64,000 nucleotides of DNA from Candidatus Heimdallarchaeota archaeon (GCA_019058275.1 JAHLVW010000036.1:1-64000); one strand, 5' to 3'. Shown: positions 35,116 through 58,556, counted from the first letter of the stretch. The notes: generated by a model from the letters alone, not told the origin. Made by a program: numbers and translations.

Positions 35116-36294
35116 CTAAATTTTTTCTCTTTTTATCCTAAGAAATTTATCTTTTGAACCACAAACAGGACAACCCATTTCTTTTAATTCTTCAATGGTT
35201 TTGATTTTCTCATTTTTACCAATTTGTATTTCATGATTTTTTGAGCATTTGTAAATTCGCAAAGTGGGTGAGAATTCACCTGTATATATTTTCTCATAAA
35301 ATTCATCTATAATTTGAGCTTTAGATAAATCAGTAGTCAATAATTTTGCGATGAATGTAGTATTTCCATGCATTTCAGCCCCCTCGTACAAATTGAATCC
35401 TGGTAGCATTTGTTGAATCACTAACCCATGTTCTTGAATCACTTTTTGAACATCTAATAAATCGTTAGGAGCTCTGTGTGCATAAGCAAGGTATACTTTA
35501 CGACCTAATTCTGGCTTTAATGCTTGCAAACATCTTGAGAGGAACAATTTCAAACCTGAAATTGTGTATGGTGGATCTGTTAATACAGTATCGAACTTAC
35601 CTACAAGCTTGTTTGAAATTGGTTTTCGTAAATCAGCATGGATACAAACAATATCAAAATTATTTTCCTTAGCGATTTGGCTTATAACATCTAATAACCG
35701 CTTATCGATATCTATTACTGTAATTTTAGTTAAGGTTCCAAGTAATGCTATAGCTAAAGATGTAAAATCATCATCACCTAACAATAGAACCTCTCTACCT
35801 TCCAAATCATCATTTTGAAGCATTAATAATGCTCGACATAAAGCTGTAATAGGTTTTCCAAAAGCTTGATCAATTTCTGTTTGTGGAGTAGGACGTAAAT
35901 CAGTAAAATCTCTTAACTTGGGAATGATACTGTCTGCATCATCTGGTAACTCAATAGTAGTTCCATCACATTCTTTACAAAGCAAGTTTTGAAAATAGTT
36001 TATTTGTAATTCTAAATTTACAAAATCTACTCCAAGCTCAGTTAGAATTGCTCCCTTTTTTAAGCGTTCAATGAAACCAATCTTTTCCAATTCTTTTCTA
36101 ATTGCTGCAACAGTTGGAATTGGTAGAAATAGCTTTCGAGCTAAGCTTTTAGTTCCAATTGTTCCAAAGCGATAAATCTCTCTTAAAACACCTCTAACAG
36201 CATCTTTACCTTCTTTTAGCTGGGATTTCGAAGCAACTTCTTGAAGAATTGTATTTCCATCTTTTTTAAATCCTGATTTTCTATAGATTGACAT
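35116..36294 (-). CDS. bpsA: N4-bis(aminopropyl)spermidine synthase-like (branched-chain polyamine synthase, DUF43) with N-terminal wHTH and C-terminal Zn ribbon
   Basis: RPxxxxEIDQ, LLLGDDDFTSLA, DIDKRLL, DLRKP, FDTVLTDPPYT; co-oriented with speD. Confidence 0.8.
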   Translation of the reverse strand: MSIYRKSGFKKDGNTILQEVASKSQLKEGKDAVRGVLREIYRFGTIGTKSLARKLFLPIPTVAAIRKELEKIGFIERLKKGAILTELGVDFVNLELQINYFQNLLCKECDGTTIELPDDADSIIPKLRDFTDLRPTPQTEIDQAFGKPITALCRALLMLQNDDLEGREVLLLGDDDFTSLAIALLGTLTKITVIDIDKRLLDVISQIAKENNFDIVCIHADLRKPISNKLVGKFDTVLTDPPYTISGLKLFLSRCLQALKPELGRKVYLAYAHRAPNDLLDVQKVIQEHGLVIQQMLPGFNLYEGAEMHGNTTFIAKLLTTDLSKAQIIDEFYEKIYTGEFSPTLRIYKCSKNHEIQIGKNEKIKTIEELKEMGCPVCGSKDKFLRIKREKI

Positions 36295-36308
36295 TTTATT
36301 ACCAACTA

Positions 36309-36689
36309 TTATTTAATCACTCGAGGTAATTCTTTTAGTTCAAAAGACTCGGGCTGTAAATATTCTTTAATGTGTTCCCAAGCAACAAATGGATCTAATG
36401 ATTCTCCACAAAGGAAGATATCTAAAGCAGCAAATCCAAATTCAGGCCAGGTATGAATTGAGATGTGTGTTTCTTTTAATATTACTACAACACTGCAACC
36501 CAATGGAGAAAACCTATGAACTGATGCTTGCAAGACATGTGCACCAGCTTTTTTTGCAGCTTCCGTTACTAGAGTTAGCAAAGCAGTTTCATCATTGATA
36601 TCTGCTTTACACTTGTAAAGATCAACTAACACTTGTTTTACAGTTAGTGGTCTTTTTAATTGGTATTTTTTAATTTCTTCCTTAGGCAT
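36309..36689 (-). CDS. speD: S-adenosylmethionine decarboxylase proenzyme (class 1B)
   Basis: HRFSPLG, LKETHISIHTWPE, DIFLCG. Confidence 0.85.
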   Translation of the reverse strand: MPKEEIKKYQLKRPLTVKQVLVDLYKCKADINDETALLTLVTEAAKKAGAHVLQASVHRFSPLGCSVVVILKETHISIHTWPEFGFAALDIFLCGESLDPFVAWEHIKEYLQPESFELKELPRVIK

Positions 36690-36871
36690 TACTTATCTTC
36701 TCCAAGTTTGCTCGAAACACTTACTAATTTAACGACGCTGATTTGATGTTAATTAATTTTTGATATTAGGAGATGTTTTAGGGACTCAATAATAAATTTA
36801 CTCATCTTTTCACTATCGGAATAGATATAATTTGTTATAGTATAAGCAAAAACTAGGAATTAGCCTTTAAG

Positions 36872-37633
36872 GTGCACATAATGAAAACCTCACGATCTAG
36901 AATCACAAAATTTCAAGACATAGAATCAACTCAGAAACAAGCTCATTTATACATTAAAGAAGGTAAAGCAACAGATGGAATGATTCTAATTTCAGAAACA
37001 CAGACTGGAGGAATTGGAAGACTGGATAGAGATTGGTCATCACCCAAAGGAGGATTGTGGATGTCTATAATCACACATAGGTCTATTCCTTTAGAATTCT
37101 TTCAAGGATTTTCAGTTAGAATTGGTTTAGCTCTAAGTAAGGTTTTGGAAGAATTTATCCAGATTCCAATCAAAGTAAAATGGCCAAATGATTTAATACT
37201 CAATGGTAAAAAAGTGGGCGGAATACTTGTTGATATAAGTTCCCAAGATGAATTTCTGCACTATTTAGTTTTAGGAATTGGGATAAATGTTAATGTCAAA
37301 TTAGACTGTCTACCAGATGAAGTAAGAAAGATAGCTACATCAATTAATTGTGAAACACAGAAAGAGCATCCAATTGAGAAAATTTTAGATTTACTTATCA
37401 GTGTATATGATCAAATCATTGATGATTTAGAAATCGGAGTAACCCTAGATCTATCAGATAATTGGGTAAAAAGATCCCATACATATAATTCAAATATAAC
37501 AGTCAAAACTGCTAATCAAATAATTGAGGGGATTGAAGTAGGCTTAACATCTAATGGTGAACTGATAATTAAAACCACAGACGGAGAGCACAAAATCTCA
37601 ATTGGTGAAATTGAACAGATAAGAAAAGCATGA
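36872..37633 (+). CDS. birA: biotin--protein ligase (no HTH)
   Basis: QTGGIGRLDRDWSSPKGGLWMS, KWPND, KKVGGIL, GIGINVN. Confidence 0.93.
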   Translation: MHIMKTSRSRITKFQDIESTQKQAHLYIKEGKATDGMILISETQTGGIGRLDRDWSSPKGGLWMSIITHRSIPLEFFQGFSVRIGLALSKVLEEFIQIPIKVKWPNDLILNGKKVGGILVDISSQDEFLHYLVLGIGINVNVKLDCLPDEVRKIATSINCETQKEHPIEKILDLLISVYDQIIDDLEIGVTLDLSDNWVKRSHTYNSNITVKTANQIIEGIEVGLTSNGELIIKTTDGEHKISIGEIEQIRKA

Positions 37634-37634
37634 A

Positions 37635-38438
37635 CTAAATCACGCTTACTTTATCTGGAATTAAGTTAACATATAATGCTTCTTTTAGTAAATGCTCAAC
37701 AAAGAATCTTCTAATCAAGCTAAAAGTTTCATAACGTGCTAGGCAATTCGTTAAATTATGGTCAGCATTTCCAATGATTTCGAATCTTTTTGGTAATTGT
37801 GCTTTCTGGTAGAGTTTTCTTATACCATTGATTGGCATGAAATCATCTTTAGCACCAGCAAGTATCATTAAAGGTCTTGGTGCGATTTTGCTTATACAAT
37901 TAAGTGGGTTGTTTCCCTTAATATCATTGACCAATTTTTCTTTAATACCTGTTGTTGGCAAACGAACTAAACCAGTTAGAGCTAATCCCTCCCACATCGC
38001 ATCAAATTCTGGGTAATTGACCATAAATTCAAAATCAAAAAGTGGAGCAAGTAAAGCTAAAGCAGAAACTCTTTGATCTCTAGAAACATGACAAGCTGCA
38101 ATTGCGCCACCTAAGCTTACTCCAAGAATACCAATTCTTAGTGGATTAACTTTGGTATGATTTGTCAAATAATTAATTACAATATCTAGATTCGCGAGTG
38201 AAGTTTGTATTGAATTTACTCCTGTGCTATCATAGAAACCAGTGAAATGAAATGCAAAATATGCAATTCCTTCATCTGTTAACATAGTTGCTATTTCTTC
38301 TTCCTTTTCAAATTTGTTTGAAACTAACCCATGAGCTTTACAAACTGCGGGATATCTATCCATACCATTGTTTGGGAAAAAAAACATGCCACTTATGGTA
38401 CTATTATAATATTGAATTGTCACTTTTTCCTTTATCAT
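37635..38438 (-). CDS. alpha/beta-hydrolase (candidate thioesterase)
   Basis: HG oxyanion motif, GVSLGG nucleophile elbow, GAKDD, ADH. Confidence 0.85.
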   Translation of the reverse strand: MIKEKVTIQYYNSTISGMFFFPNNGMDRYPAVCKAHGLVSNKFEKEEEIATMLTDEGIAYFAFHFTGFYDSTGVNSIQTSLANLDIVINYLTNHTKVNPLRIGILGVSLGGAIAACHVSRDQRVSALALLAPLFDFEFMVNYPEFDAMWEGLALTGLVRLPTTGIKEKLVNDIKGNNPLNCISKIAPRPLMILAGAKDDFMPINGIRKLYQKAQLPKRFEIIGNADHNLTNCLARYETFSLIRRFFVEHLLKEALYVNLIPDKVSVI

Positions 38439-38471
38439 TAATTGACTATATCTCCTGTTATAATATACAAT

Positions 38472-38948
38472 TTAACCAATCTTAATCTTCATGAGCAATT
38501 GTTTGGAAGAAACTTGATCACCTATACCTACTGCTATTCTTTCTATAATTCCATCAATTGGTGATAAAATCTCATTTCTCATTTTCATCGATTCTAATAC
38601 TAGAAGACATTGTTGATCTTTGACTTTCTCTCCAGCTTGAACCTTTATTTCCACGATTTTTCCTGCTATCGCTGCTTTGATATCTGTTCCTTTTTTGTGC
38701 TTGATATTTTTTCGACTCATTATTTGAGGAGCTGGTTTGAAATCAAAATCAATTTCTTTTCCATTTAGAAAAACAGTATTTTCCTTAAATTCAATCCTTA
38801 GCACTCTACCATTTACTAATACTCTGTAAAATCTGCCATTATAGAATACTTCGGGCTTGAATTGATAATCATTAATCTTGATGCCATTTGGAGATTGTTC
38901 TAAATCAAATTCAGAACCATGAATGCGAATCTTGTACTTTTTCTCCAT
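38472..38948 (-). CDS. biotin carboxyl carrier protein
   Basis: VLESMKMRNEI biotinylation motif. Confidence 0.93.
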   Translation of the reverse strand: MEKKYKIRIHGSEFDLEQSPNGIKINDYQFKPEVFYNGRFYRVLVNGRVLRIEFKENTVFLNGKEIDFDFKPAPQIMSRKNIKHKKGTDIKAAIAGKIVEIKVQAGEKVKDQQCLLVLESMKMRNEILSPIDGIIERIAVGIGDQVSSKQLLMKIKIG

Positions 38949-38951
38949 GAT

Positions 38952-40424
38952 TTAGTCCCTCCCTATAGCATCCATCTTACTTTTCATTCGCCAATTATCT
39001 GATGTAGATGGAAGACTGAGTTTGCTTTTCTTTAATCCAACAGCAAATAGTGCTGATGCAATTGTGCAAACGTTTTTCTCAAGTTTCTCGAGTATTTTTC
39101 TATCTTGAATGAAATTTATACTAATATCACCCATTTGGAAATTAGCATCTTCAAATAATTGCTCGAAGAAAGAGATATTTGTAGGAAACCCAATAATAAC
39201 TAATTCTTTCAAAGCATTTTGTGCTCGTCGAATAGCTTCTTCTCTAGATTCATCTGCTACTATTAATTTTCCAATTAGTGAATCATAGCAATCTGGTATT
39301 GTGAATCCTTCATAGATTGAAGTATCAAATCGTACTTGAGGACCACCTGGTGCAACAAATCTGGAAACCATACCGGGTGTTGGTTGAAAATTCATAAGAG
39401 GATCTTCTGCATTGATTCGTAATTCTATTGCATGTCCCCTAAATTTAATATCAGACTGTTTAAACGACAATTCAGCACCTTGAGCAATCTTAATTTGCTC
39501 TTTAACAATATCCTTTCCAGTTAACATTTCAGTTACAGGGTGCTCAACTTGAATTCTTGGATTTATTTCATTAAACATAACCTGATTATTTTTGTAGAGG
39601 AATTCTATTGTACCAGCATTTTTGTAACCAAGAGTTTTTGCTAGTTTACAAACTAATGCACCAATTTCCTTTCTCTCTGCATTTGTAATAGCTGTTGATG
39701 GTGATTCTTCTAACAATTTCTGATTTCTACGTTGTATTGAGCACTCTCTTTCACCTAAATGAACAACATTTCCAAAATTATCAGCTAAGATTTGAAACTC
39801 AATATGCCTTGGTTGCTCAATAAATTTCTCTAGGAAAACACTACTGCGTCCAAATGCTAATTTAGCTTGAGCACTAGCATTTCTAAGTGCGTTTTTCAAA
39901 TCCTTTTTATTAAGAGCAACCTGAATTCCCATACCTCCTCCACCAAAAACAGCCTTAACTAATACTGGATAACCGATTTTTTCAGCTTCTCTAATTCCTT
40001 CTTTATAATTTGAGATAATATCAGAACCAGGTGGAACGGATAATCCAACTTCTATTGCCTTTTCCCTTGACTTGACTTTATTTCCAAGAAGTTCAATAAC
40101 TTCAGGTGCGGGTCCAATAAATGTAATTCCTTCATCTAACAATCTTTGAGCAAAAATCTCACTTTCAGACAGAAATCCATATCCTGGGTGAACACTTTCT
40201 ACTTCTTCGCGCTTGCAAATAGCTGCAATCTGATCAATATCTAGATATCCTGGAGTTTCCCCATCTTCAACTAGCTCAAAAGATTCATCAGCGAGCTTCA
40301 CGTGAAGTGCATTTCGATCAACAGGGGAATAAATTGCGAAGGTTTTGATAACGAGCTCACGAGCTGCTCGGATGATTCTTACTGCAATTTCACCTCTGTT
40401 TGCTACTAACAGAGTATTGAACAT
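38952..40424 (-). CDS. accC: biotin carboxylase subunit of acyl-CoA carboxylase
   Basis: ANRGEIA, HPGYGFLSE, GGGGMG, ERECSIQRR, NPRIQVEH, RINAED. Confidence 0.95.
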   Translation of the reverse strand: MFNTLLVANRGEIAVRIIRAARELVIKTFAIYSPVDRNALHVKLADESFELVEDGETPGYLDIDQIAAICKREEVESVHPGYGFLSESEIFAQRLLDEGITFIGPAPEVIELLGNKVKSREKAIEVGLSVPPGSDIISNYKEGIREAEKIGYPVLVKAVFGGGGMGIQVALNKKDLKNALRNASAQAKLAFGRSSVFLEKFIEQPRHIEFQILADNFGNVVHLGERECSIQRRNQKLLEESPSTAITNAERKEIGALVCKLAKTLGYKNAGTIEFLYKNNQVMFNEINPRIQVEHPVTEMLTGKDIVKEQIKIAQGAELSFKQSDIKFRGHAIELRINAEDPLMNFQPTPGMVSRFVAPGGPQVRFDTSIYEGFTIPDCYDSLIGKLIVADESREEAIRRAQNALKELVIIGFPTNISFFEQLFEDANFQMGDISINFIQDRKILEKLEKNVCTIASALFAVGLKKSKLSLPSTSDNWRMKSKMDAIGRD

Positions 40425-40438
40425 GATAACAATGCAAC

Positions 40439-40525
40439 TTTTACAGTCTTATATATCACTAACGCCTTTTTACTGTAAAACCATTTCAAAGGAGGAATTT
40501 TGCTGTAGAGACTTTTACAGTAAAA
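40439..40525. promoter_or_regulatory. repeated palindromic sites TTTTAC(A/T)GTAAAA in the divergent promoter
   Basis: Perfect copies at 40468-40480 and 40513-40525; degenerate copies at 40439-40451 and 40498-40510. Confidence 0.65.
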
Positions 40526-40605
40526 AAAAGATACATATATGATTATCATAGTTCCGTTTCTAAATGCGGCTTGGCAACCGTTTACTGAAACAGGAGATTT
40601 ATGAA

Positions 40606-42207
40606 ATGAATATGAACTCAGAGCTTACTGAAAATAGAGAACTTTTACTCAAAAAAGGCAAAACTCAGCAGAAGGCTGAGGAATTATTGGAGAAAAGAGA
40701 AGTAGCTCTACAAAGTGGTGGAGAAAAAGCAATTCAAAAGCAGTTAGAGAAGGGCAAATTAACTGCACGTCAAAGAATTGAACTTCTACTAGATCCAGGC
40801 TCATTTGTTGAAACCAATATGTTTGTTAGACATAAAAACAGCAATTTTGGATTGGACAAGAAGAAATTCTACACTGATGGTGTTATTACTGGTTTCGGTC
40901 AAGTAAATGGCAAATTAGTTTATGTTTACAGTCAAGATTTCACAATTCTAGGTGGAAGTCTTGGTGAGGCTCATGCTAAGAAAATAACTCAATTAATGGA
41001 TCAAGCAGTGCAAAATGGTGCCCCAATAATCGGGTTTAATGATTCTGGTGGTGCAAGAATTCAAGAAGGTGCAAGTTCACTAGCAGGTTATGGTGATATT
41101 TTCATTCGAAATGTTCGTGCTTCTGGTATTGTTCCTCAAATTTCTTGCATTGTAGGTCCTTCTGCTGGAGGAGCTGTTTATTCACCTGCGCTTACAGATT
41201 TTATTGTTATGACAGAAGATACTTCTTATATGTTTGTCACTGGTCCCGTAGTCGTAAAAGCTGTTACAGGAGAGGAGACATCATTTGAAGAGCTTGGTGG
41301 TGCTTCCACACACAGCACTAATTCTGGAATTTCTCACCTGGTTGGCTCTGATGAAATTGAATCTATTGAGCTCATAAAAGTGCTCCTCTCCTATCTTCCT
41401 TCTAATAATTTGGAAGATCCTCCATTAAAGGACACTTCAACCATTAATGGATACGAATTTAAAATGTTAAATGATATCATACCAGATGACCCCCAAGAAC
41501 CCTATGATATGAGAGAAGTAATTCTACGCATTGTAGATAAAGGAAACTTCCTAGAGCTTCAAAAGAAATGGGCTCAAAATATCATAATTGGTTTTGGAAG
41601 ACTAAATGGTCATCCAATTGGCATTGTAGCCAACCAACCAAGTATACTTGCAGGAGCTTTAGACATTAATGCTTCAATCAAAGCAGCAAGATTCATACGC
41701 TTCTGTGATTCATTTAATATTCCAATTATCACTTTCGTAGATGTTCCAGGATTCTTACCTGGATTAGATCAAGAACATAATGGCATAATCAAACATGGAG
41801 CAAAGCTCATATTTGCATATGCTGAAGCTACTGTACCAAAATTAACAGTTATTACAAGAAAAGCTTATGGAGGAGCCTATATTGTAATGGGATCCAAACA
41901 TCTTGCAAATGACATTAATTTTGCATGGCCAACAGCTGAAATTGCAGTTATGGGTTCAGAAGGTGCAGTTCAAATCATTTACAGAAGAGATTTAGCAGCT
42001 GCTGAAGACAAAGAAGAAATGTTATTGAATCTGAAAAATGACTTTGCTAAAGAATTCAATAATCCTTACTTAGCAGCAGAAAGAGGTTACATTGATGACG
42101 TTATTCTTCCTAGTGAAACACGTCAAAAATTAATTGCTTCTCTCTGGCCTTTACTCAGAAAAAGAGAAAGAAGATTGAACAAAAAGCACGGAAATATACC
42201 CCTTTAA
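40606..42207 (+). CDS. acyl-CoA carboxylase carboxyltransferase subunit (PccB/MmdA-type)
   Basis: QDFTILGGSLG, DSGGARIQEG, DVPGFLPG, RKAYGGAY, KKHGNIPL; AGGAG upstream of ATG 40606 (track start 40564). Confidence 0.95.
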   Translation: MNMNSELTENRELLLKKGKTQQKAEELLEKREVALQSGGEKAIQKQLEKGKLTARQRIELLLDPGSFVETNMFVRHKNSNFGLDKKKFYTDGVITGFGQVNGKLVYVYSQDFTILGGSLGEAHAKKITQLMDQAVQNGAPIIGFNDSGGARIQEGASSLAGYGDIFIRNVRASGIVPQISCIVGPSAGGAVYSPALTDFIVMTEDTSYMFVTGPVVVKAVTGEETSFEELGGASTHSTNSGISHLVGSDEIESIELIKVLLSYLPSNNLEDPPLKDTSTINGYEFKMLNDIIPDDPQEPYDMREVILRIVDKGNFLELQKKWAQNIIIGFGRLNGHPIGIVANQPSILAGALDINASIKAARFIRFCDSFNIPIITFVDVPGFLPGLDQEHNGIIKHGAKLIFAYAEATVPKLTVITRKAYGGAYIVMGSKHLANDINFAWPTAEIAVMGSEGAVQIIYRRDLAAAEDKEEMLLNLKNDFAKEFNNPYLAAERGYIDDVILPSETRQKLIASLWPLLRKRERRLNKKHGNIPL

Positions 42208-42254: not shown

Positions 42255-45200
42255 ATGGTTTCTAGATATGATTTTGAAAATATCATAAGCAAACATAAAC
42301 CAATATTAGCTTACAATCCACAAGGAATTTCTGATGTCACTTTGATTAAGTCTGTAGTTGAATCTGGTGGTATTGGTCTTGTTGATTTAGAACGATTGCA
42401 AGATGATACGATTCAAGAATTATTACAAAATTGCTCCCAAAACATAAACGACTCATGGGGAATTAGAATTTCTTCTAAAGAACAATTGAAGCTTGTTCTT
42501 ACTCAACACGAAGATTCTTTTCCTTTGATTCTAGTTATTGGGGATTTCAAGCTTACTTCAACTGATTTACAAAAGATTAAAGCTAAATCTATTGTTCTTT
42601 TAGCTGAAGTGATTTCTTTAGAAGAAGCTTATGATAAGAAATGGGCTGAAGTATTTATTGTTAAAGGTAATGAGGCTGCTGGAAGAGTTGGTGATCAAAC
42701 ATCTTTCATACTCGCACAACAATTTGCAGATGCTGGATTGCCTTTTATAGTCCAAGGTGGTATTGGTCTTTATACTACCCCTGCTGTTTTTGCTGTTGGA
42801 GCTAAAGCTATTGTTTTGGACACTCAACTATTTCTTACACCTGAAAGTCCTCTTTCAAATCAAGTCAAAGAGTTCTTATCCAAATTAGATGCGACTGATA
42901 CAAAGGTATTGGGTGAATCCACTTCTAAGAAATATCGAGTTTATGCACGTTTAGGAACAAAAATAGTTCGTGAAATTGTCCAAAAGGAGAAGGAATTATT
43001 AGAGCTTACTAAAAAAGAGCGAACAAAGGTTTTCCAAGAAATTCTTCTTTCTAAAAGAGATATGTTTGATAAGGATGATATATCTAACTGTTTGATTCCA
43101 ATAGGTCAGGATATACCCTTTGCAGGAATTTTGACTGCAAAATTCAAAGATGTTAATGGTATAATTAATGGTCTGCTTAAGCAAGCAAAGAAGCAAATCA
43201 AAGAAGCCATAATGAATTATCCATTTAGAGAAAATACTGAGATTGCAAAAACCCTTGGAGTAAAATATCCCCTTATCCAAGGACCAATGGCTAATGTTTC
43301 TGAAAGTCCGAAATTTGCTAAAGTGACATCAAATGCAGGAGCATTACCATTTTTAGCTTTAGGTTCACTCTTTCCTAATCAAACCAGAACTTTAATTAGC
43401 GAAACCAAAAAGGCATTAGGTGAAAAACCATTTGGATGTGGATTAATTGGTCTTGAAGCTAATAAAACTGCTCGAGATGAACATCTGAAAATAATTAAAG
43501 AGCTAAAGCCACCTTTTGTCGTTGTTGCTGCCGGAACCATTGATCAAGCTAAAGAAATAATGAATTATGATATTGAAACATTCCTACATACACCATCACC
43601 ATTGATCTTCGCTGAAGCTATAGAATCAAACGTTTATTCCTTGATTTTAGAAGGAATGGAATGTGGTGGTCATATAGGTGTTTTAACAAGTTTTGTTTTA
43701 TGGGAATTATCTTTACACCAATTAGCAAAGTTAGAAGATAGCATAAAGAATAGCAATAAAAAAGTAACAGTTGCATTTGCAGGAGGAATTGGTGATAGAT
43801 TTTCTGCTGCAATAGCTGGTGTTGTTAGTTCTTCATTACCTGAATTAATGAATGGTGTCATGTGGGTTGGTTCTGCATATATTTTAGTAAAAGAAATTGT
43901 TGAAACAGGTGCAATTCAACCACTATACCAACAATTAGCATTAAATGCTAAAGAGACTATGGTCATGGGTGAAACAGTAAATACTCGAGCAAGATCTATC
44001 CCAACACCATTTGCAAGAGAAATCATCAAAAGAGAATTAGATAGAATTCATGAAGGTATCAGCTTAAAGGAACGCAAGCATCAGTATGAACGAGACAATT
44101 TAGGAGCAACTCGAGTAGCTGCATTAGGTGAAATCTGGAATCCAGATGGTGAAGACGACAAACCAAATAGGTTCATGTTTGTAGATGAAAAAGTGCAACA
44201 CAAGAAAGGGAATTATCTAATTGGTCAAATTGTCACAAGTCTTCGTTGTATACGATCGATTGATAATTTGCATGATGAGCTTATTATGAATTCCCAAAAA
44301 GTAGTTACTAAGAAGGGAATGGAATTAGCTGAAAAGCTGAGACAAATAAGTGAACAAGTGCTAAAAATCCCAGAAAAGAAAATAGATCCAGTATCAACAG
44401 ATATATCTTATCAAGAAGTTAATACTGATATATTTGAAAGTGAAGGAATAGCTGTTATTGGTTTAGGTTGCGTTTTTCCTGATGCACCAAATATCAAAAC
44501 ATATTGGAAAAATATACTCAAAAAAGTTTATTCCATAAAAGAAATCTCAAAGAAGAGATGGCATGGTGATATCAATCTATTCTATAGTGAAGATAGAAAT
44601 ATGCCAAACAAAACCTATGCAAAAATTGCTGCTGAAATTGAAGATCTTAAGTTCAATTCAATAGAATTCAAAATTCCACCAAAAGTTACAATAACAATGG
44701 GTAAAACCCAGAAACTAGCTTTAATGGCTGCAAAAGAAGCGTTAAGTGATTCTGGATTACTTGAAAAAGGTGTGGATAATAATAGAACTGCAGTTATCAT
44801 AGGTAATTCGATGGGTGATGAGATAAGAGGAGATCGTACTCGAAAGATCTATGTACCTGAATTCTTGGCTTCAATAGAAAAGACTTCCTCATTCAAGGAT
44901 ATTGACAAGAAATCTTGGGAAAATATCAGAAAAGAAGTATTCGATGATTATGAATCTAAACTATCACCAATTAATGAAGATGCTATGCCAGGGGAATTAT
45001 CGAACATCATCGCAGGGAGAATCGCTAATGTTTTCAATCTTCGCGGTAAAAGTATGACTACTGATGCAGCATGTGCATCAAGCTTAGCAGCATTGAATGT
45101 AGCAGTAAAAGGACTTCTTGATAAAGAATATAATGTAGCCCTTTGTGGAGGTGTAGATTGCTCTTTAGACCCAACGACATTTGTAAAGTTTGCAAAAATA

Positions 45201-48200
45201 GGTGCTATATCTGCAGAAGGATCTTTTCCATTTGATGCTAGAGCAAACGGATTTGTTATGGGCGAAGGAGCAGGTTTCTGTGTTCTAAAACGTTTATCAG
45301 AAGCTGTTAAAGATGGCAATAAAATTTACGCTGTATTTAGAGGATTTGGAGCTGCTTCTGACGGGAAAGGAAAAGGAATTACTGCCCCTAATCCTATCGG
45401 ACAAAAACTTGCAATAGAAAGAGCACTAGACCAAGCTGGTCTTACATTCTCTGATATACAATATGTTGAAGCACACGGTACAAGTACAACTGTAGGTGAT
45501 GTCATTGAAATGCAAGTACTGAACGAAATGGCTCAAGACATAAAACCAGCATCAATTGCTATAGGTTCTATTAAAAGTCAAATTGGTCACTTGAAGAGTG
45601 CCGGAGGTATTGCTTCAATAATAAAAACAGCTCTTGCACTGCACCATAAAATTCTACCACCTTCTATCAATTTTAAGACACCTAATCCAAAAATAGATTG
45701 GGCGACTTCACCATTTTACGTTAATATTAATAAACAAGATTGGAAGCTACCCTCAACTGGTTTTAGAGCTGCAGGGATTTCTTCTTTTGGTTTTGGTGGT
45801 ACAAACTACCATGCAATTATAGAGGAATACATTCCTGGTAAAACTAGAGGTCATTTACCAACCCTAATTAGTTCTAAGGAATTACAGAACATTCTTGCAG
45901 GAGCTCATATTGCTCAAGGATTAAGCACCTCAGCTGAATTTGAGAAGGTTCTAGATACCTCAAAATGGCAAGATTACATTGGTAAGAACATTTCACTAGA
46001 GATTGAACCAATCTTCTTTGGAGGTAATTCCGAACAAGAATTAATTGATTCCATAAATGACTATAAAGGTGCAATCCCTCAGAGCACATTTAAAACAGAT
46101 GGTACAGGATTTCGTGTAAGGAACTTAACTGTACAATCACTAGATAATCTATCTAAGAAAATTAAAGCAAGTATAACTTGTTCATCACTAGAAGATTTAC
46201 CAAAAACCTTAGATACTTTAGTTGAAGGTATAAAAGAGAAAAGAAAACGAAAATTGCTTATGAATAAGGGGATGTTCTTCAGTGATGATCATTCTCTTGG
46301 TAAAATAGCTTTTCTTTTCCCTGGACAAGGAAGTCAATATCTTCGCATGGGTAAAGAGCTATTTGAAAAATACACAATAGTTCAAGAGACTTTCAATGAA
46401 GCAGATGAAATTACAAAAGAACTTATCGGTTTTCCAATATCAGATGTAATTTTCACAAATGGAAAATCTGATGAAGAAGCAGTAGCGCAACTAAAAGAAA
46501 CAGAAATCACTCAACCAGCAATCTTTACTTTGAATATTGCTATTTTCAGATTACTGAAGTCCTTTGGTATAGAACCTGATTTTGTTGCAGGTCATAGCAT
46601 GGGTGAATATGCTGCTTTAGTTGCTTCAGGGATCCTTAGTCTTAGAGATGGATTCCTTGCTATTGTTCCTCGTGGACAAACTATGTCTAAATTCAAATCT
46701 AAGGATAAAGGAACGATGGCTTCAATAGGAGCTGGATATGAAGTTGTTGATGAAGTTCTCAAAACAATTGATGAATATGTTATTGCTGCTAATAAGAACT
46801 CACCAAAACAAACGGTAATATCTGGTTCTACTGTAGGTGTTAAAGCAGCTGTAAAAGCTTTTACAGATAAAGGTATTCCTGCTATTCCATTGCCTGTTTC
46901 AGCTGCATTCCATTCTAAAATAGTTGAAATAGCAGTTGTTGAATTCAGAAAAGCACTAAAGAAATTAAAATACAAAAAACCACTAATACTAATCTCCAGT
47001 AATGTTACTGGAGAATTGTATCCAACAACAAGAAAAGAAATAATCGATTTATTATGTGCTCAAGTATGCTCTCCTGTTGAATGGATAAAACAAATAACTG
47101 ACATGTATGAGAAACATGGAGCTAGAACATTCATAGAAATAGGTCCAAAATACGTTCTAACGAGTTTCAATCGAGGAATACTTGAGGAAAAAACTGATGT
47201 TTTATCACTTGCATCAAATCATCCTAAGAGAGGAGCTATTCAACATTTCTCTGAAGTGATTGGTGCATTAGGAACTTATTGCTATCCTATAAAGTATCCA
47301 GCATTAGAAAGTACAATATATACACCTGAATTCAGAAATCCACTCGAGAGATTTTATACGAAGAGAGTAATTAGTAGAGAATCAGTAAGACAAACTATCG
47401 TAAAGAAATCTCCTTTTGACATTCTAATAAATTCAAAACTCAAATCATTAGTCAAAGAGGACTCATTTAGTGACTATCTTAAATTACAAGCACCAGCAAT
47501 AAGTGCCTTTTTAGAAGTTGGCTATGAAACCTATAAAACAACGATTGCTGAAGCAATGAAAGAAAAGGAGAGGTTCGATAAACTCCAAATTAATACTGAA
47601 GCAATTGGAATAACTGGCGTATCCATAGGACTACCTGGCAGAGATAGGAAGGTATTTGATGAATCAAACTTTGATGCGATTCTTGCAGGAGAAAATTTCA
47701 TTGATCTTATACCAATGGAATATCGTAAAAAAATGGTTGATAAGAATATTGTACGTCTTGTCAAAGATGCTATTAAAGGTGCACAATTCCAGACAATCTC
47801 GGATGTTAGCGAAGTAATTAAATTAGCTGCACAGAAAGGCCAATTCAATCTTTCTGAAGAATATGGTGTAGATGTTGGTTTTACTGAGATTTTAGATATT
47901 ACATTTCAATTAGCTTTTGCAGCTGGTATTGAAGCTATGAGAGATGCAGGTATCCCACTGATGCCATTAAAAGTTAAAACCTCTGTAGGTAAGGAAATTA
48001 CAAAGGGATGGGCATTACCCGAGTCATTAAGAAATGAAACTGGAATAATTTTTGCATCAGCATTTCCTGCTTATAGTAATTTAATCTCAGTTGTATCTGA
48101 ATATCTAGCAGATAAATATGCAAATAAAAATCGAGAGGAAATAAATCTCCTTTTTGATGAGTTAATTGACCAAATTTCTAATAAAACCTCAAAAGAGAGG

Positions 48201-51200
48201 ATTCAACAGTGGTTCCTCAACAATAAGTCACAAATTGCTACTGATAAAGAGTCACAATTCCAATTCAGTAGGAAGTTCTTGTTTGAAATACTTTCAATGG
48301 GTCATTCACAATTTGCACAATTCATTAGAGCTAGAGGACCTAACACTCAAGTAAATGCTGCATGTTCATCTACAACCCAAGCTGTTGCTATAGCAGAAGA
48401 TTGGATAAGAACCAGTAGATGTAAAAGAGTAATAGTGATTGCTGCAGATGATGTAACCAATGAGGTCATGCTTGAATGGATTGGGTCTGGCTTTTTAGCA
48501 GTAGGTGCAGCAACAACACTTGAGAAAGTAGAAGAAGCAGCTTTACCTTTTGATAAAAGAAGGCATGGCATGATAATCGGAATGGGCGCTGTAGGAATAG
48601 TAATAGAAGCAGAATCAGCAATTCAAAAAAGAGGAGTAAAACCCATTGTTGACTTGCTGGGAACTCACATAGTGAATTCCGCTTTCCATGGAACAAGATT
48701 GGACAGAGATCATATCTCTTCACAAGTGGATGAATTTATTACAAATATTGAACGAAGACATGGAATCACTCGAGAGGAAATTGCCAGAGAACTGGTATTT
48801 GTTAGCCATGAAACATATACTCCAGCAAGAGGAGGAAGTGCTTCTGCTGAAGTAGATGCTTTAAGAAAAACATTTGGTAGCATGATTGACAAGATCGTTA
48901 TTGCCAATACAAAAGGATTTACAGGACATGCTATGGGTGCTGGTATTGAAGATGTCGTTGCTGTTAAGATTCTTGAAAAAGGAATTGTACCTCCTGTTGC
49001 TAATTGGAAAGAGCTTGATCCAGAACTTGGACACTTGAATCTGTCAAAAGGTGGAAAATATAACGTTAAATACGCTCTTAGATTTGCAGCTGGTTTTGGA
49101 TCTCAACTTACTCTAGTTTTGTACAGATTAAACACTTCCCTAAATCGTCTTGAAGGTGTTGGCTATGAACAATGGTTGAACTCTCTAGGTGGTACTAAAT
49201 CAACTATGGAAGTTGTAAAGAAAACCCTGCGTTTGAAGGAAGATCCAACTTTAATTAAACCTCAGCAAATTATTCCAAAAATTACTGCCCAAACTGGTAG
49301 TATGCAAGATGAGGGGATAGTTAAAGCTGTTGTTGATTTAATTTCCGAAAAAACTGGTTATCCAATAGATATGATTGAGCCAAATATGCATTTAGAGGAA
49401 GACTTGGGGATTGACACAGTAAAGCAAGCTGAATTATTTGGTGTCATAAGAACTAAATACAGTTTACCTCGAGAGGAAGGCGTAAGAATCCAAGAATACT
49501 TCTCAGTAAATAAAATCGCTGAATATATTACTTCTAGAATTTCAGGAGAAATTCAACCTTCGAGTGTAGACTCAGGTGTTCAAATACAACAGAGTACTTC
49601 CTCATCTCATAAAGAGATAGCAAAGGAAATTACTCTTCTAATTTCTGAGAAAACTGGTTATCCAACAGATATGATAGAAGCTGATATGGAATTAGAAGAA
49701 GATCTTGGTATAGACACAGTTAAGCAAGCAGAAATGTTTGGAATCATCAGAACAAAATGGAATCTACCAAGAGAGGAAGGTATTCGTATACAAGAGTATT
49801 CAACTGTCAATAAAATTGCTGAATATATTCTGAAAAGAGTTAGTGATGCTTCACAAACTTCAACTGAAGTAGTAGCTGAAACAACAACCTCAACAGAAGA
49901 TATCTATGTACCTGCTAAACGATTGGTCTTACAATTAATTGAATCACCTATGCCCAAAGCTGAAAAAATCAAATTAAAGGATAAAAAATTCATTATCGCT
50001 GGTGAAACAGGACCATTCACTACTAAACTAATTTCACTACTAGGAGACAAGAAAGCTAATCTAATAAAACATCTTGATTTGAAAACTCTTAACTCGAGAG
50101 AGAAAATACTCAAAGAAATACCTGAAGATGTTATAGATGGCTTGATTTACATTGAACCAAAAACTAGTCAGAAAAATAAGCACAACTTAACAGCTAGAAT
50201 CTTCTTCACTCTTTGTCGTGATATCAACTATTCTGATTCACCTTTAGTATTAACCATAAGCGAAAACATAACCTCTTTTGGTTGGAATGGTAAGCATAAA
50301 CCAATTTCTGGTTCACTTACTGGATTAACTAAAGCCATTGCTCGTGAATTTACAAATAGTAGAGTTAAATGTGTTGCGTGTAATGATCCTAAATATGCTA
50401 TCGATGAAATCTGTGCAGGAGATGGATCTATCGAAGTTTCCTATACAGAGGATGGTAAAAGAAAAGTTTTCGTTACAGTGGAAACTCCTGTTGAAGTTAC
50501 TGATCAACCGTTTACAATCTCAAAGGATGAATTGGTAATTATTACTGGTGGAGCTCTAGGAATTACTCATCAAATTTCTAAAGAATTAGCGAAAAGATAT
50601 CAACCCAAATTAGCTTTGGTTGGCATTGAAACTCTCCCAGATAATATTGATGAAATAGCCAATTATAGTGAAGAAAGGTTAGCTCAATTAAAAGATCAAT
50701 TGATTAGTGATTTAAAACAAAGAGAAGAAAGAGTTACTCCGGTTCTAATAGAAAAGGAATGGTCAAAAATCAGCAAAGCAATTGATGTTAAAAAAGGGAT
50801 CGAAGAGCTAACTGCACTAGGTAGTGTTGTAAAATATTACTCAACTAATGTCGTAAATACCGAACAAATGAAATCTACCATTGAACAAATTGGTGCTGAT
50901 TTTGGTCAAGAAATTATTGGTATAATTCATGGTGCAGGTTTAGAAATTTCTAGATTAATTAAAGATAAAAAACCAGAGGAATTTGATCTTGTTTACAATG
51001 TAAAAGCCATTGGCTTAGATAACCTAATTCAAAACATAAACATGAAGAAGGTAAAATTCGTCAAATGCTTTTCATCAGTTGCTGGTAGATATGGTAATGG
51101 TGGCCAAGTCGACTATTCAGCTGCTAATGATTATCTCTCCAAGAATTGTTGGCAATTAAGGTCAAAAGGAATTCGTGCAACTTCTATTTGTTGGTCTGCT

Positions 51201-57419: not shown

Positions 57420-58556
57420 CTAATTATCTGCCCAGACTGAGTATAATTGAGCAAGTTGATCAGTAATAGTATCATTGAATAACAAAACTTGTCCTGCGAA
57501 TCTAGAGGGAGGACCAGTTCCTACTTTCATCATTATAAGGTTTAATCCATGATTTAAGGTAACAGAATTCTTTGTATACCATATTTCCTTTCTATTGCCT
57601 TGAAGAATGTATTCACCATTGAACCATACTTTGAAATTTTTCTCACCATTAGCTCCAACATTAACTGTGAGTGAATCACTACTTGGATTATAAATGTAAG
57701 ACCACATGTAGACTAATCCCCTTTCACCCCATTCTAAATCATCATGAGTATCCCAATTCCCAGCTTTTGTAAATGCTATTAAACCAGGTCTAGCACCACT
57801 GTCATTATAAGGCATTATTTTATGATTACTTTGTAGGCCAATGTTACCTTGTGTGAATGTATTAGTGTCAAGAAGATTTGGAAGATAATCTTGTTCACTA
57901 CCATAACCACATAGATCTATGTAATCAATAGAGATATCAGGTGTCCTAGTATTATCTTCGAATTCACCTAGTAAAAACCAAAGGTTGGGTGAAAATCCTA
58001 CAGTTGTTGGGAAATTACTCTTACCATAAGCATCATCTGATGATGTTCTTCTTACCAAATAGTCATGATAATAATATGGTATGCCATCAGAATAATTGCC
58101 AGAATTTGCTGATGGAAGTGTTGCAACAAAACCAGAGGAGATAAAATCATCATCTTCAAATCTAACTTGAACTCTAAAAACAACAAATGGTTGAATTTCT
58201 TCAGAACTACCAAGTGCAAATAAATTTATATCATCAATTTCACTTATACCGACTTTTCTGTCAAGTGTATACCAAAGTAATGTTTCATTATTTTGCAGAA
58301 TCGCAACACTTTCGATATCTGCGTCATTCATACCTTTATTCATCAAAGGTATAGAAACAGTGTCAAACAAACCATTTCTATCAAAATCTTCAACTTCAAT
58401 TTCTCCAGCTTGATAAATATCTGACTTTAATCTAAGATAACTCATTGTAATGCCAACAACAATTCCTGCAGCAATAACAGTTATACCAATCAAAAATACA
58501 GTAGCTATAACATTAGATACTGCTTTTTTATTTGGTAAAATGGATCTAAAATTCAT
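57420..58556 (-). CDS. large archaeal type IV pilin/adhesin with class III signal peptide
   Basis: KKA|VSNVIATVFLIGITVIAAGIV; C-terminal PA14-like KVWFNGE...VTLNHGLNLIMMKV. Confidence 0.8.
   Translation of the reverse strand: MNFRSILPNKKAVSNVIATVFLIGITVIAAGIVVGITMSYLRLKSDIYQAGEIEVEDFDRNGLFDTVSIPLMNKGMNDADIESVAILQNNETLLWYTLDRKVGISEIDDINLFALGSSEEIQPFVVFRVQVRFEDDDFISSGFVATLPSANSGNYSDGIPYYYHDYLVRRTSSDDAYGKSNFPTTVGFSPNLWFLLGEFEDNTRTPDISIDYIDLCGYGSEQDYLPNLLDTNTFTQGNIGLQSNHKIMPYNDSGARPGLIAFTKAGNWDTHDDLEWGERGLVYMWSYIYNPSSDSLTVNVGANGEKNFKVWFNGEYILQGNRKEIWYTKNSVTLNHGLNLIMMKVGTGPPSRFAGQVLLFNDTITDQLAQLYSVWADN

What the first reader, a model, noticed from the sequence alone, without database searches (positions are those of the whole stretch)
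49310..49845. Both ACP domains have Thr instead of Ser at the phosphopantetheine site
Seen: both carrier domains read LEEDLGIDTVKQAE, with Thr codons ACA at 49416-49418 and 49716-49718, exactly 300 nt apart. The repeats have diverged at synonymous sites yet both keep Thr, so a sequencing error is unlikely. I see no other D-S carrier motif in the protein. Established: 4'-phosphopantetheine is attached to the Ser of the GxDS motif in characterised carrier proteins. Inference: either O-phosphopantetheinyl-threonine is formed, or the synthase works on CoA thioesters or a trans-acting carrier.
Basis: partly seen in the sequence, partly recalled or inferred. Interest (0 to 1): 0.87.

Follow-up and report, generated by a model that had tools for sequence, protein, structure and literature searches.

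The report
Carrier domains with threonine attachment site
Both acyl-carrier domains of a giant all-in-one fatty-acid/polyketide synthase in an Asgard-type archaeon have threonine where every studied carrier protein has its cofactor-bearing serine. The genome's only cofactor-attaching enzyme is fused to the same protein, which points to an undescribed threonine-linked phosphopantetheine.

Summary
ORF 42255-53000 (+, 3581 aa) carries two carrier (ACP) domains with LEEDLGIDTVKQAE. The Thr codons are ACA at 49416-18 and 49716-18, and the protein has no GxDS motif.

The threonine sits on the phosphopantetheine (Ppant) serine of solved ACPs and starts helix II of a confident ACP fold. It is neither an error nor decay:
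- Of 1231 ACP domains in 263 homologues, 1006 have Thr, 221 Ser and 4 something else (broken motifs).
- In 11 related archaeal genomes all 26 domains keep Thr, using all four Thr codons.

The family is the uncharacterised 'Type R' secondary-lipid synthase of Shulse & Allen (2011). I found no paper that mentions the Thr.

In this genome (92.8% complete) these two domains are the only carrier domains. The only PPTase is the Sfp-like C-terminal domain of the same protein, with its catalytic residues intact. A modelled ACP-PPTase-CoA-Mg complex puts Thr2388 against the catalytic Glu3505. Ser and Thr interchange naturally inside the clade.

Best reading (about 0.6): the fused PPTase makes O-phosphopantetheinyl-threonine. 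This is unproven, and E. coli ACP S36T is reported as unmodifiable.

The scan has reported the same feature before on at least eight other genomes.

The parts
42255..53000 (+). Single ORF of 3581 aa. Domain order: ER-like (NMO) x2, KS, malonyl transferase (MAT), second KS, ACP x2, KR, DH, Sfp-type PPTase.
42408..44039 (+). Two tandem NMO/FabK-like enoyl-reductase regions (residues 52-259 and 328-595).
   Evidence: Pfam NMO 4.8e-22 with 2 stretches. FabK TIGR03151 1.5e-41, below its cut-off.
44442..45851 (+). KS1, PfaA-like. Cys940 lies in DAACASS; HGTST and IGH motifs are present.
46311..47201 (+). FabD-like malonyl-CoA:ACP transacylase with GHSMG.
   Evidence: TIGR00128 4.7e-68; motif.
47592..49244 (+). 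Second KS (the 'CLF' position of Type R). It keeps the active-site Cys (NAACSS) and both His.
   Evidence: The Cys is conserved in 179 of 190 homologous domains.
49314..49547 (+). ACP domain 1. Thr2388 (ACA, 49416-49418) stands at the phosphopantetheine site.
49614..49847 (+). ACP domain 2. Thr2488 (ACA, 49716-49718) stands at the phosphopantetheine site.
50535..51206 (+). Ketoreductase, PfaA-like, with YSAAN.
51408..52217 (+). PKS-type dehydratase (PKS_DH_N plus PS-DH) with the active-site His motif.
52302..52997 (+). Sfp/HetI-like PPTase domain, the only one found in the genome. Catalytic residues H3443, D3461, E3463, K3504, E3505 and K3509 are present.
36872..42207 (.). Linked malonyl-CoA supply genes: biotin ligase (36872-37633 +), alpha/beta hydrolase (37635-38438 -), BCCP (38472-38948 -), biotin carboxylase (38952-40424 -) and carboxyltransferase (40564-42207 +).
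   Evidence: Pfam. The same order stands in front of the synthase in two congeneric genomes, and ACC genes lie close to it in a genome of another family.

Best explanation
The gene encodes a self-contained iterative type I fatty-acid/polyketide synthase of the 'Type R' PfaA-like family. Its two carrier domains use threonine, not serine, as the attachment point of 4'-phosphopantetheine.

Proposed mechanism:
1. The C-terminal Sfp-type PPTase domain of the same polypeptide binds CoA and Mg.
2. Its catalytic Glu3505 deprotonates the hydroxyl of Thr2388 or Thr2488 at the N-terminus of ACP helix II.
3. The PPTase transfers phosphopantetheine, giving O-phosphopantetheinyl-threonine.
4. The resulting thiol arm is loaded with malonate by the FabD-like transferase, from malonyl-CoA made by the adjacent acetyl-CoA carboxylase.
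5. The arm then carries the chain through KS, KR, DH and ER.

Shown here: the Thr, its homology to the Ser site, its family-wide conservation, the intact catalytic domains, and the exclusive pairing of PPTase and carrier in this genome.

Inferred: that the Thr is actually modified, and what the product is (probably a saturated or lightly unsaturated long acyl chain).
For: 1. Position. Thr2388 aligns with the Ppant Ser of solved ACPs. It is the first residue of helix II in an AF2 model (pLDDT 87.4). That model matches solved ACPs at target-normalised TM 0.8-0.88 for single-domain ACPs.

2. Selection for a hydroxyl residue.
- 1231 ACP domains of 263 homologues have T 1006, S 221 and others 4. 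The four exceptions have wholly degenerate motifs.
- 26 further domains in 11 related archaeal genomes are all Thr, spread over ACT, ACC, ACA and ACG.
- Any Thr codon is one base from a Ser codon, yet Thr persists.

3. Natural interchange of Ser and Thr.
- On a KS tree of 164 proteins the T/S label needs only 4 changes, against 22.8 when shuffled.
- P0142 has six Ser-ACPs (LGIDSVKVAE) and a homologous fused PPTase. It nests in the 99%-supported 10-member clade that holds the query.
- P0013 and P0065 begin with one Ser-ACP (LGIDSVKQVEL) followed by five Thr-ACPs in one polypeptide with one fused PPTase; the alignment scores P0108 the same way.

4. Closed system. The genome's only PP-binding or Thr-ACP matches are these two domains. 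Its only PPTase match is the fused domain.

5. The PPTase is under catalytic constraint. 38 fused PPTases keep H94, D112, K155, E156 and K160 invariant, and E114 nearly so. These residues stand in the SHS, GxDxE and WxxKExxxK motifs, which align one-to-one with the same motifs of Sfp (1QR0/4MRT, E 5e-25).

6. Modelled complex of PPTase, CoA, Mg and ACP.
- ipSAE 0.83, best of 3 controls 0.01.
- This mark was reached by 58 of 80 solved complexes and 2 of 110 mismatched pairs.
- The runs agree in at least 90% of contacts, and the partner's pLDDT is at least 83.
- Thr39 (Thr2388) touches E156, G165 and L166. Val40 touches W152 and E114.
- Like complexes have been solved (Sfp-PCP 4MRT, AcpS-ACP 4DXE), so the pass may be from memory. 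It shows likeness, not binding.

7. The MAT, both KS, the KR and the DH keep their catalytic motifs, so a thiol carrier is needed.
Against: - No chemical evidence exists: no mass spectrometry, no structure, and no characterised member of the Thr-type family was found.
- In E. coli the S36T variant of ACP is used as a non-modifiable, non-functional control (PMC3340395). At least one PPTase type (AcpS, group I) therefore appears not to use Thr in that context.
- The fused PPTase shows no obvious active-site difference from Sfp that would explain acceptance of a secondary alcohol.
- The modelling program would probably dock a Ser- or Thr-ACP alike.
Confidence: 0.6

Rival explanations
1. The Thr is never modified. 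The ACP-like domains are non-covalent docking or scaffold modules, and the synthase works directly on CoA thioesters, as has been proposed for ACP-less archaeal fatty-acid metabolism.
For: - E. coli ACP S36T cannot be phosphopantetheinylated.
- Archaea generally lack ACP (established knowledge).
- No Ser-type carrier was found in this genome.
Against: - It leaves the genome's only PPTase, which is fused, conserved and catalytically intact, without a substrate.
- It leaves the FabD-like malonyl-CoA:ACP transacylase without an acceptor.
- A scaffold role would tolerate Ala, Val or Gly at this column, but only Thr or Ser is seen in intact motifs.
- The same Thr domains occur in bacteria that have ordinary ACP systems.
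Confidence: 0.15
2. The domains are modified, but not as Ppant on this Thr. Either another hydroxyl residue of the domain (such as the conserved Thr of EKTGYP or of helix IV) carries the arm, or the Thr carries a different CoA-derived group.
For: Two further near-invariant Thr residues exist in the domain (T18 and T68 of alignment A1).
Against: - T18 does not appear in the modelled interface list, whereas T39 contacts the catalytic Glu.
- From recalled sequences, not checked here, both extra Thr also occur in ordinary Ser-type ACPs: EKTGYP in PfaA and the helix IV cap in E. coli ACP. They are therefore not specific to Thr-type domains.
- The PPTase is a standard Sfp-type enzyme.
Confidence: 0.07
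3. The Thr codons are an assembly or sequencing error, or the mark of a decaying gene.
For: None found. The genome is a draft with 6.8% estimated contamination.
Against: - The reading frame is intact over 3581 aa with all catalytic motifs.
- The two diverged repeats agree.
- Orthologues of about 3575-3612 aa in at least 8 further genomes keep Thr.
- The feature is family-wide.
Confidence: 0.01

Closest known systems
'Type R' secondary-lipid synthase cluster (Shulse & Allen 2011, PLoS One 6:e20146, PMC3098273). It was described in Koribacter, Solibacter, Elusimicrobium and Roseiflexus.
   Same: - One PfaA-like protein with the order KS-MAT-'CLF'-tandem ACP-KR and a dedicated PPTase.
- Homologues named by their sources as Elusimicrobium, Anaerolineae, Caldilineae and Acidobacteria carry the same DTVKQ domains.
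   Different: - The paper does not mention the Thr, and the product is unknown.
- Here the PPTase is fused at the C-terminus and two ER-like domains are fused at the N-terminus.
- A PKS-type DH is present, there are only 2 ACPs (3-6 in the paper), and the host is an archaeon.
- The 'CLF' keeps its active-site Cys.
Tandem ACP domains of PfaA in PUFA synthases (NCBIfam TIGR02813; for example the Shewanella protein P0093), signature LGIDSIKRVEI.
   Same: - Best family match of KS, MAT, ACP and KR.
- Tandem repeats, the same surrounding motif (E-x-DLGIDxxK) and the same fold.
   Different: - Ser-Ile-Lys-Arg-Val is replaced by Thr-Val-Lys-Gln-Ala.
- The scores of the pieces stay below the family cut-off.
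- No PfaB or PfaC, and no FabA-type DH, was seen in the window.
Sfp of Bacillus subtilis with its carrier protein (PDB 1QR0, 4MRT), and the fused PPTase of yeast FAS alpha subunit (2UV8).
   Same: - The PPTase domain aligns with Sfp over 177 positions with all catalytic motifs.
- As in yeast FAS (also hit), the PPTase is part of the synthase polypeptide it should activate.
   Different: All of these act on Ser. Acceptance of Thr has not been reported in anything I could find.
E. coli ACP S36T mutant.
   Same: It carries the same substitution at the homologous residue.
   Different: It is an engineered mutant, reported as unmodifiable and non-functional (PMC3340395). It acts with the group I PPTase AcpS, not an Sfp-type enzyme. 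The natural family pairs Thr with Val-Lys-Gln after it and with its own PPTase.
Enediyne PKSE (SgcE/CalE8 type). Recalled from memory, not tested here.
   Same: An iterative KS-AT-ACP-KR-DH enzyme with a C-terminal fused PPTase, related to PUFA synthases.
   Different: It has a single Ser-ACP, no ER and no second KS.

Membership tests
Acyl carrier protein / PP-binding domain (PF00550) | Sequence match to the family model | tested here: met
   The didomain scores 37.6 bits against a cut-off of 20.8. ACP1 alone scores 21.7 and ACP2 alone 20.5. Genome scan.
Acyl carrier protein / PP-binding domain (PF00550) | Small helical-bundle fold with the attachment residue at the N-terminus of helix II | tested here: met
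   AF2 pLDDT 87.4, with helix II starting at Thr39. Foldseek finds solved ACPs at target-normalised TM 0.8-0.88 for single-domain ACPs.
Acyl carrier protein / PP-binding domain (PF00550) | Conserved Ser of the (D/H)S(L/I) motif as the phosphopantetheine site | tested here: not met
   Thr stands in both domains and aligns to the Ser of solved ACPs.
Acyl carrier protein / PP-binding domain (PF00550) | Covalent 4'-phosphopantetheine | not testable with these tools
   This needs mass spectrometry.
'Type R' secondary-lipid synthase (Shulse & Allen 2011) | Domain order KS-MAT-CLF-tandem ACP-KR in one protein | tested here: met
   There are 2 ACPs rather than 3-6, and the CLF position keeps its Cys.
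'Type R' secondary-lipid synthase (Shulse & Allen 2011) | Dedicated PPTase with the synthase | tested here: met
   It is fused at the C-terminus rather than being a downstream gene.
PfaA, polyketide-type PUFA synthase (TIGR02813) | Score over the curated cut-off (1010 bits) | tested here: not met
   Tested in pieces only: 404, 205, 105 and 159 bits. The sum stays below the cut-off.
PfaA, polyketide-type PUFA synthase (TIGR02813) | Partners PfaB/PfaC with FabA-type DH/isomerase domains | not tested
   None was seen among the ten neighbouring ORFs scanned (35116-42207 and 53165-58556). The whole genome was not searched for them.
Sfp-type (group II) PPTase | A two-lobed domain of about 230 aa with the catalytic His, Asp, Glu and Lys residues in the SHS, GxDxE and WxxKExxxK motifs | tested here: met
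   Invariant H94, D112, K155, E156 and K160 in 38 fused domains. Alignment to 1QR0/4MRT at E 5e-25. Motifs.
Sfp-type (group II) PPTase | Transfers Ppant from CoA to a carrier-protein hydroxyl | not testable with these tools
   Only a modelled complex is available.

The most novel reading that the evidence does not exclude
O-(4'-phosphopantetheinyl)-threonine is a natural, widespread post-translational modification. It would be made by dedicated Sfp-type PPTases on the LG(I/V)DTVKQ carrier domains of a very large bacterial and archaeal synthase family. The 'invariant serine' of carrier proteins would then not be universal. In this Asgard-type archaeon, the Thr-linked arm would drive a complete, ACC-fed fatty-acid-type synthase in an organism with no other carrier protein.
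Probability: 0.58. Interest if true: 0.88.

Novelty: new variant of a known kind. Interest (0 to 1): 0.8.

Why it matters
- Every textbook and review treats the phosphopantetheine serine as invariant in FAS, PKS and NRPS carriers. A natural Thr-linked arm would be a new form of a universal cofactor attachment.
- Thousands of megasynthases contain such domains, and rule-based annotation may call them inactive.
- It could supply a carrier/PPTase pair orthogonal to AcpS-type systems for engineering.
- It is directly testable with one small expression construct.
- In this window the case is unusually clean, because one polypeptide holds the genome's only carrier domains and its only PPTase.
- It also shows an Asgard-type archaeon with a complete fatty-acid-type synthase fed by acetyl-CoA carboxylase. 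This bears on whether such archaea make fatty acyl chains (the 'lipid divide').

Tried and rejected
- Literature: full-text searches found nothing on Thr at the Ppant site or on follow-ups of Type R. They covered 'DTVKQ', threonine with phosphopantetheine and tandem ACP, six phrasings of threonine phosphopantetheinylation, and Type R organisms with Pfa.
- Zeamine synthase (PUFA-like) was a lead, but its ACPs are described as LGIXS, with Ser.
- The fimsbactin paper's 'threonine instead of serine' concerns a building block, not a carrier.
- PlsC-type acyltransferase (PF01553) and thioesterase (PF00975) were not found in the 92.8%-complete genome. The fate of the product stays open.
- I looked for a PPTase residue that would explain Thr acceptance. 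The residues touching Thr39 and Val40 in the model (E156, G165, L166, W152, E114) align with identical residues in Sfp's motifs, so no specificity determinant was identified.
- Sequencing error, decay and a trans-acting carrier were considered and rejected.

Full report
**What is there**

The finding lies inside one ORF, 42255..53000 on the + strand, of 3581 aa. Pfam and NCBIfam give this domain order:
- two NMO/FabK-like enoyl-reductase regions
- a PfaA-like ketosynthase
- a FabD-like malonyl transferase
- a second, FabF-like ketosynthase
- two carrier (ACP) domains
- a PfaA-like ketoreductase
- a PKS-type dehydratase
- a C-terminal Sfp/HetI-like phosphopantetheinyl transferase (PPTase)

All the expected catalytic motifs are present: KS Cys and two His in both KS domains, GHSMG, YSAAN, the DH His motif, and the PPTase GIDLE and WTAKEAASK.

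**The observation**

- Both ACP domains read LEEDLGIDTVKQAE. Thr2388 is ACA at 49416-18 and Thr2488 is ACA at 49716-18, 300 nt apart.
- The two repeats share 56 of 75 residues and 163 of 225 bases. 26 codons differ synonymously, 7 of them inside the motif.
- The protein has no GxDS motif.

**Is the Thr really at the cofactor site?**

- A profile of 85 such domains (A1) matches solved ACPs, and its D-T falls on their D-S.
- An AF2 model (pLDDT 87.4) has helix II beginning exactly at this Thr.
- Foldseek returns only ACPs at the top, at target-normalised TM 0.8-0.88 for single-domain ACPs.

The domain meets the ACP definition in sequence and fold but fails the defining Ser.

**Error, decay or rule?**

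It is the rule for a large family.
- A search restricted to the didomain found 2589 long homologues. An exhaustive search with one ACP domain found 4870 representatives.
- In the 263 proteins I held, 1231 ACP domains carry T 1006, S 221 and other 4 at this column. The four exceptions have wholly broken motifs.
- Thr goes with Val-Lys-Gln-(Ala/Val). Ser goes with Ile-Lys-Arg-Val, the PUFA-synthase signature.
- In 40 relatives of the window's genome the synthase was found in 8 of 10 congeners and in three other families, but in 0 of 14 genomes of one family.
- All 26 ACP domains read from eleven of those genomes have Thr, using ACT, ACC, ACA and ACG.
- Every Thr codon is one base from a Ser codon, so this is purifying selection for Thr.

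**Which family?**

The architecture and the named hosts of homologues (Elusimicrobia, Anaerolineae, Caldilineae, Acidobacteria, Saprospiraceae, Thermoplasmatota, Heimdallarchaeota) match the 'Type R' secondary-lipid synthase of Shulse & Allen 2011. That type is KS-MAT-CLF-ACP(3-6)-KR with a PPTase gene downstream, and its product is unknown. The paper does not mention the Thr, and none of my full-text searches found any paper that does.

**Evidence on mechanism**

- The column accepts only the two hydroxyl residues.
- Ser and Thr interchange naturally.
  - On a KS tree of 164 proteins the label needs 4 changes, against 22.8 when shuffled.
  - P0142 has six Ser-ACPs in a Thr-like context (LGIDSVKVAE) and a homologous fused PPTase. 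It sits inside the well-supported 10-member clade that holds the query. It lies on a contig with Arf/Roc-type GTPase genes.
  - P0013 and P0065 start with one Ser-ACP (LGIDSVKQVEL) followed by five Thr-ACPs in front of a single fused PPTase. The domain alignment scores P0108 the same way.
- This genome is a closed system. At 92.8% completeness, its only PP-binding or Thr-ACP matches are these two domains. Its only PPTase match is the domain fused to them.
- 38 fused PPTases keep H94, D112, K155, E156 and K160 invariant. These residues sit in the motifs that align one-to-one with Sfp's catalytic motifs.
- A modelled complex of PPTase, CoA, Mg and ACP scored ipSAE 0.83 against a best control of 0.01.
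  - The mark was reached by 58 of 80 solved complexes and 2 of 110 mismatched pairs.
  - The runs agree in at least 90% of contacts, and the partner's pLDDT is at least 83.
  - The Thr touches the catalytic Glu (E156 = E3505).
  - Sfp-PCP and AcpS-ACP complexes are solved, so this may be memory of known complexes. It shows likeness, not binding or chemistry.

**Evidence against**

- There is no chemistry.
- E. coli ACP S36T is used as an unmodifiable control (PMC3340395).
- I could not find a PPTase residue that would explain acceptance of a secondary alcohol.

I therefore put Thr-linked phosphopantetheine at about 0.6, an unmodified or CoA-based mode at about 0.15, and another site or group at about 0.07.

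**Context**

- Upstream lie biotin ligase, an alpha/beta hydrolase, BCCP, biotin carboxylase and carboxyltransferase.
- The same order stands in front of the synthase in two congeneric genomes. ACC genes also lie close to the synthase in a genome of another family.
- This fits a synthase fed with malonyl-CoA. The hydrolase is a candidate release enzyme (inference).
- No PlsC-type acyltransferase or PF00975 thioesterase was found in the genome.
- The host looks archaeal and Asgard-like. The evidence is an archaeal pilin and a branched-chain polyamine synthase in the window, and a best named homologue from 'Candidatus Heimdallarchaeota'.

**Relation to earlier scan notes**

The scan has reported the same Thr-type carrier domains on at least eight other genomes. 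One is an Asgard case with a fused sole PPTase. A later check priced the bold reading at 58/100. My tests were run independently on this window and agree.

Noticed in passing
window 47592-49244 (residues 1780-2330): The second KS, called 'CLF' in the Type R description, keeps the active-site Cys and both His. The Cys is conserved in 179 of 190 homologous domains. It may therefore be a second working ketosynthase rather than a chain-length factor.
   Followed up: partly
window 42408-44039 (residues 52-595): Two tandem NMO/FabK-like enoyl-reductase regions are fused to the N-terminus of the synthase. The first matches only part of the model. It was not examined whether both are active or whether they form a pseudo-dimer.
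   Followed up: no
window 36872-42207; L017, L018, L019: The order biotin ligase, alpha/beta hydrolase, BCCP, biotin carboxylase, carboxyltransferase stands directly in front of the synthase. It is conserved in two congeneric genomes, and ACC genes also lie close to the synthase in a genome of another family. The hydrolase (37635-38438, -) is a candidate chain-release enzyme.
   Followed up: partly
L016 (P0142, NCBI GCA_026702845.1 contig JADCLS010000015.1): A close relative with six Ser-type ACPs (LGIDSVKVAE) and a fused PPTase nests among Thr-type synthases. It lies next to an Arf/Ras/Roc-type GTPase gene and TPR genes. It is a natural Thr-to-Ser 'revertant' useful for comparison.
   Followed up: partly
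whole genome G000: No PlsC-type acyltransferase (PF01553) and no PF00975 thioesterase were found in the 92.8%-complete genome. How the acyl product leaves the synthase, and where it goes, is unknown.
   Followed up: partly
relatives G001-G040: The distribution in the class is patchy. The synthase is present in families f1 (9/11), f2 (9/10), f4 (3/3) and f6 (1/1). It was not found in any of 14 genomes of family f3, several of which are over 90% complete.
   Followed up: no
window 35116-36689 (-): A BpsA-type branched-chain polyamine synthase with an N-terminal MarR/HTH domain lies next to an AdoMet decarboxylase. Both are conserved beside the ACC genes in congeners.
   Followed up: no
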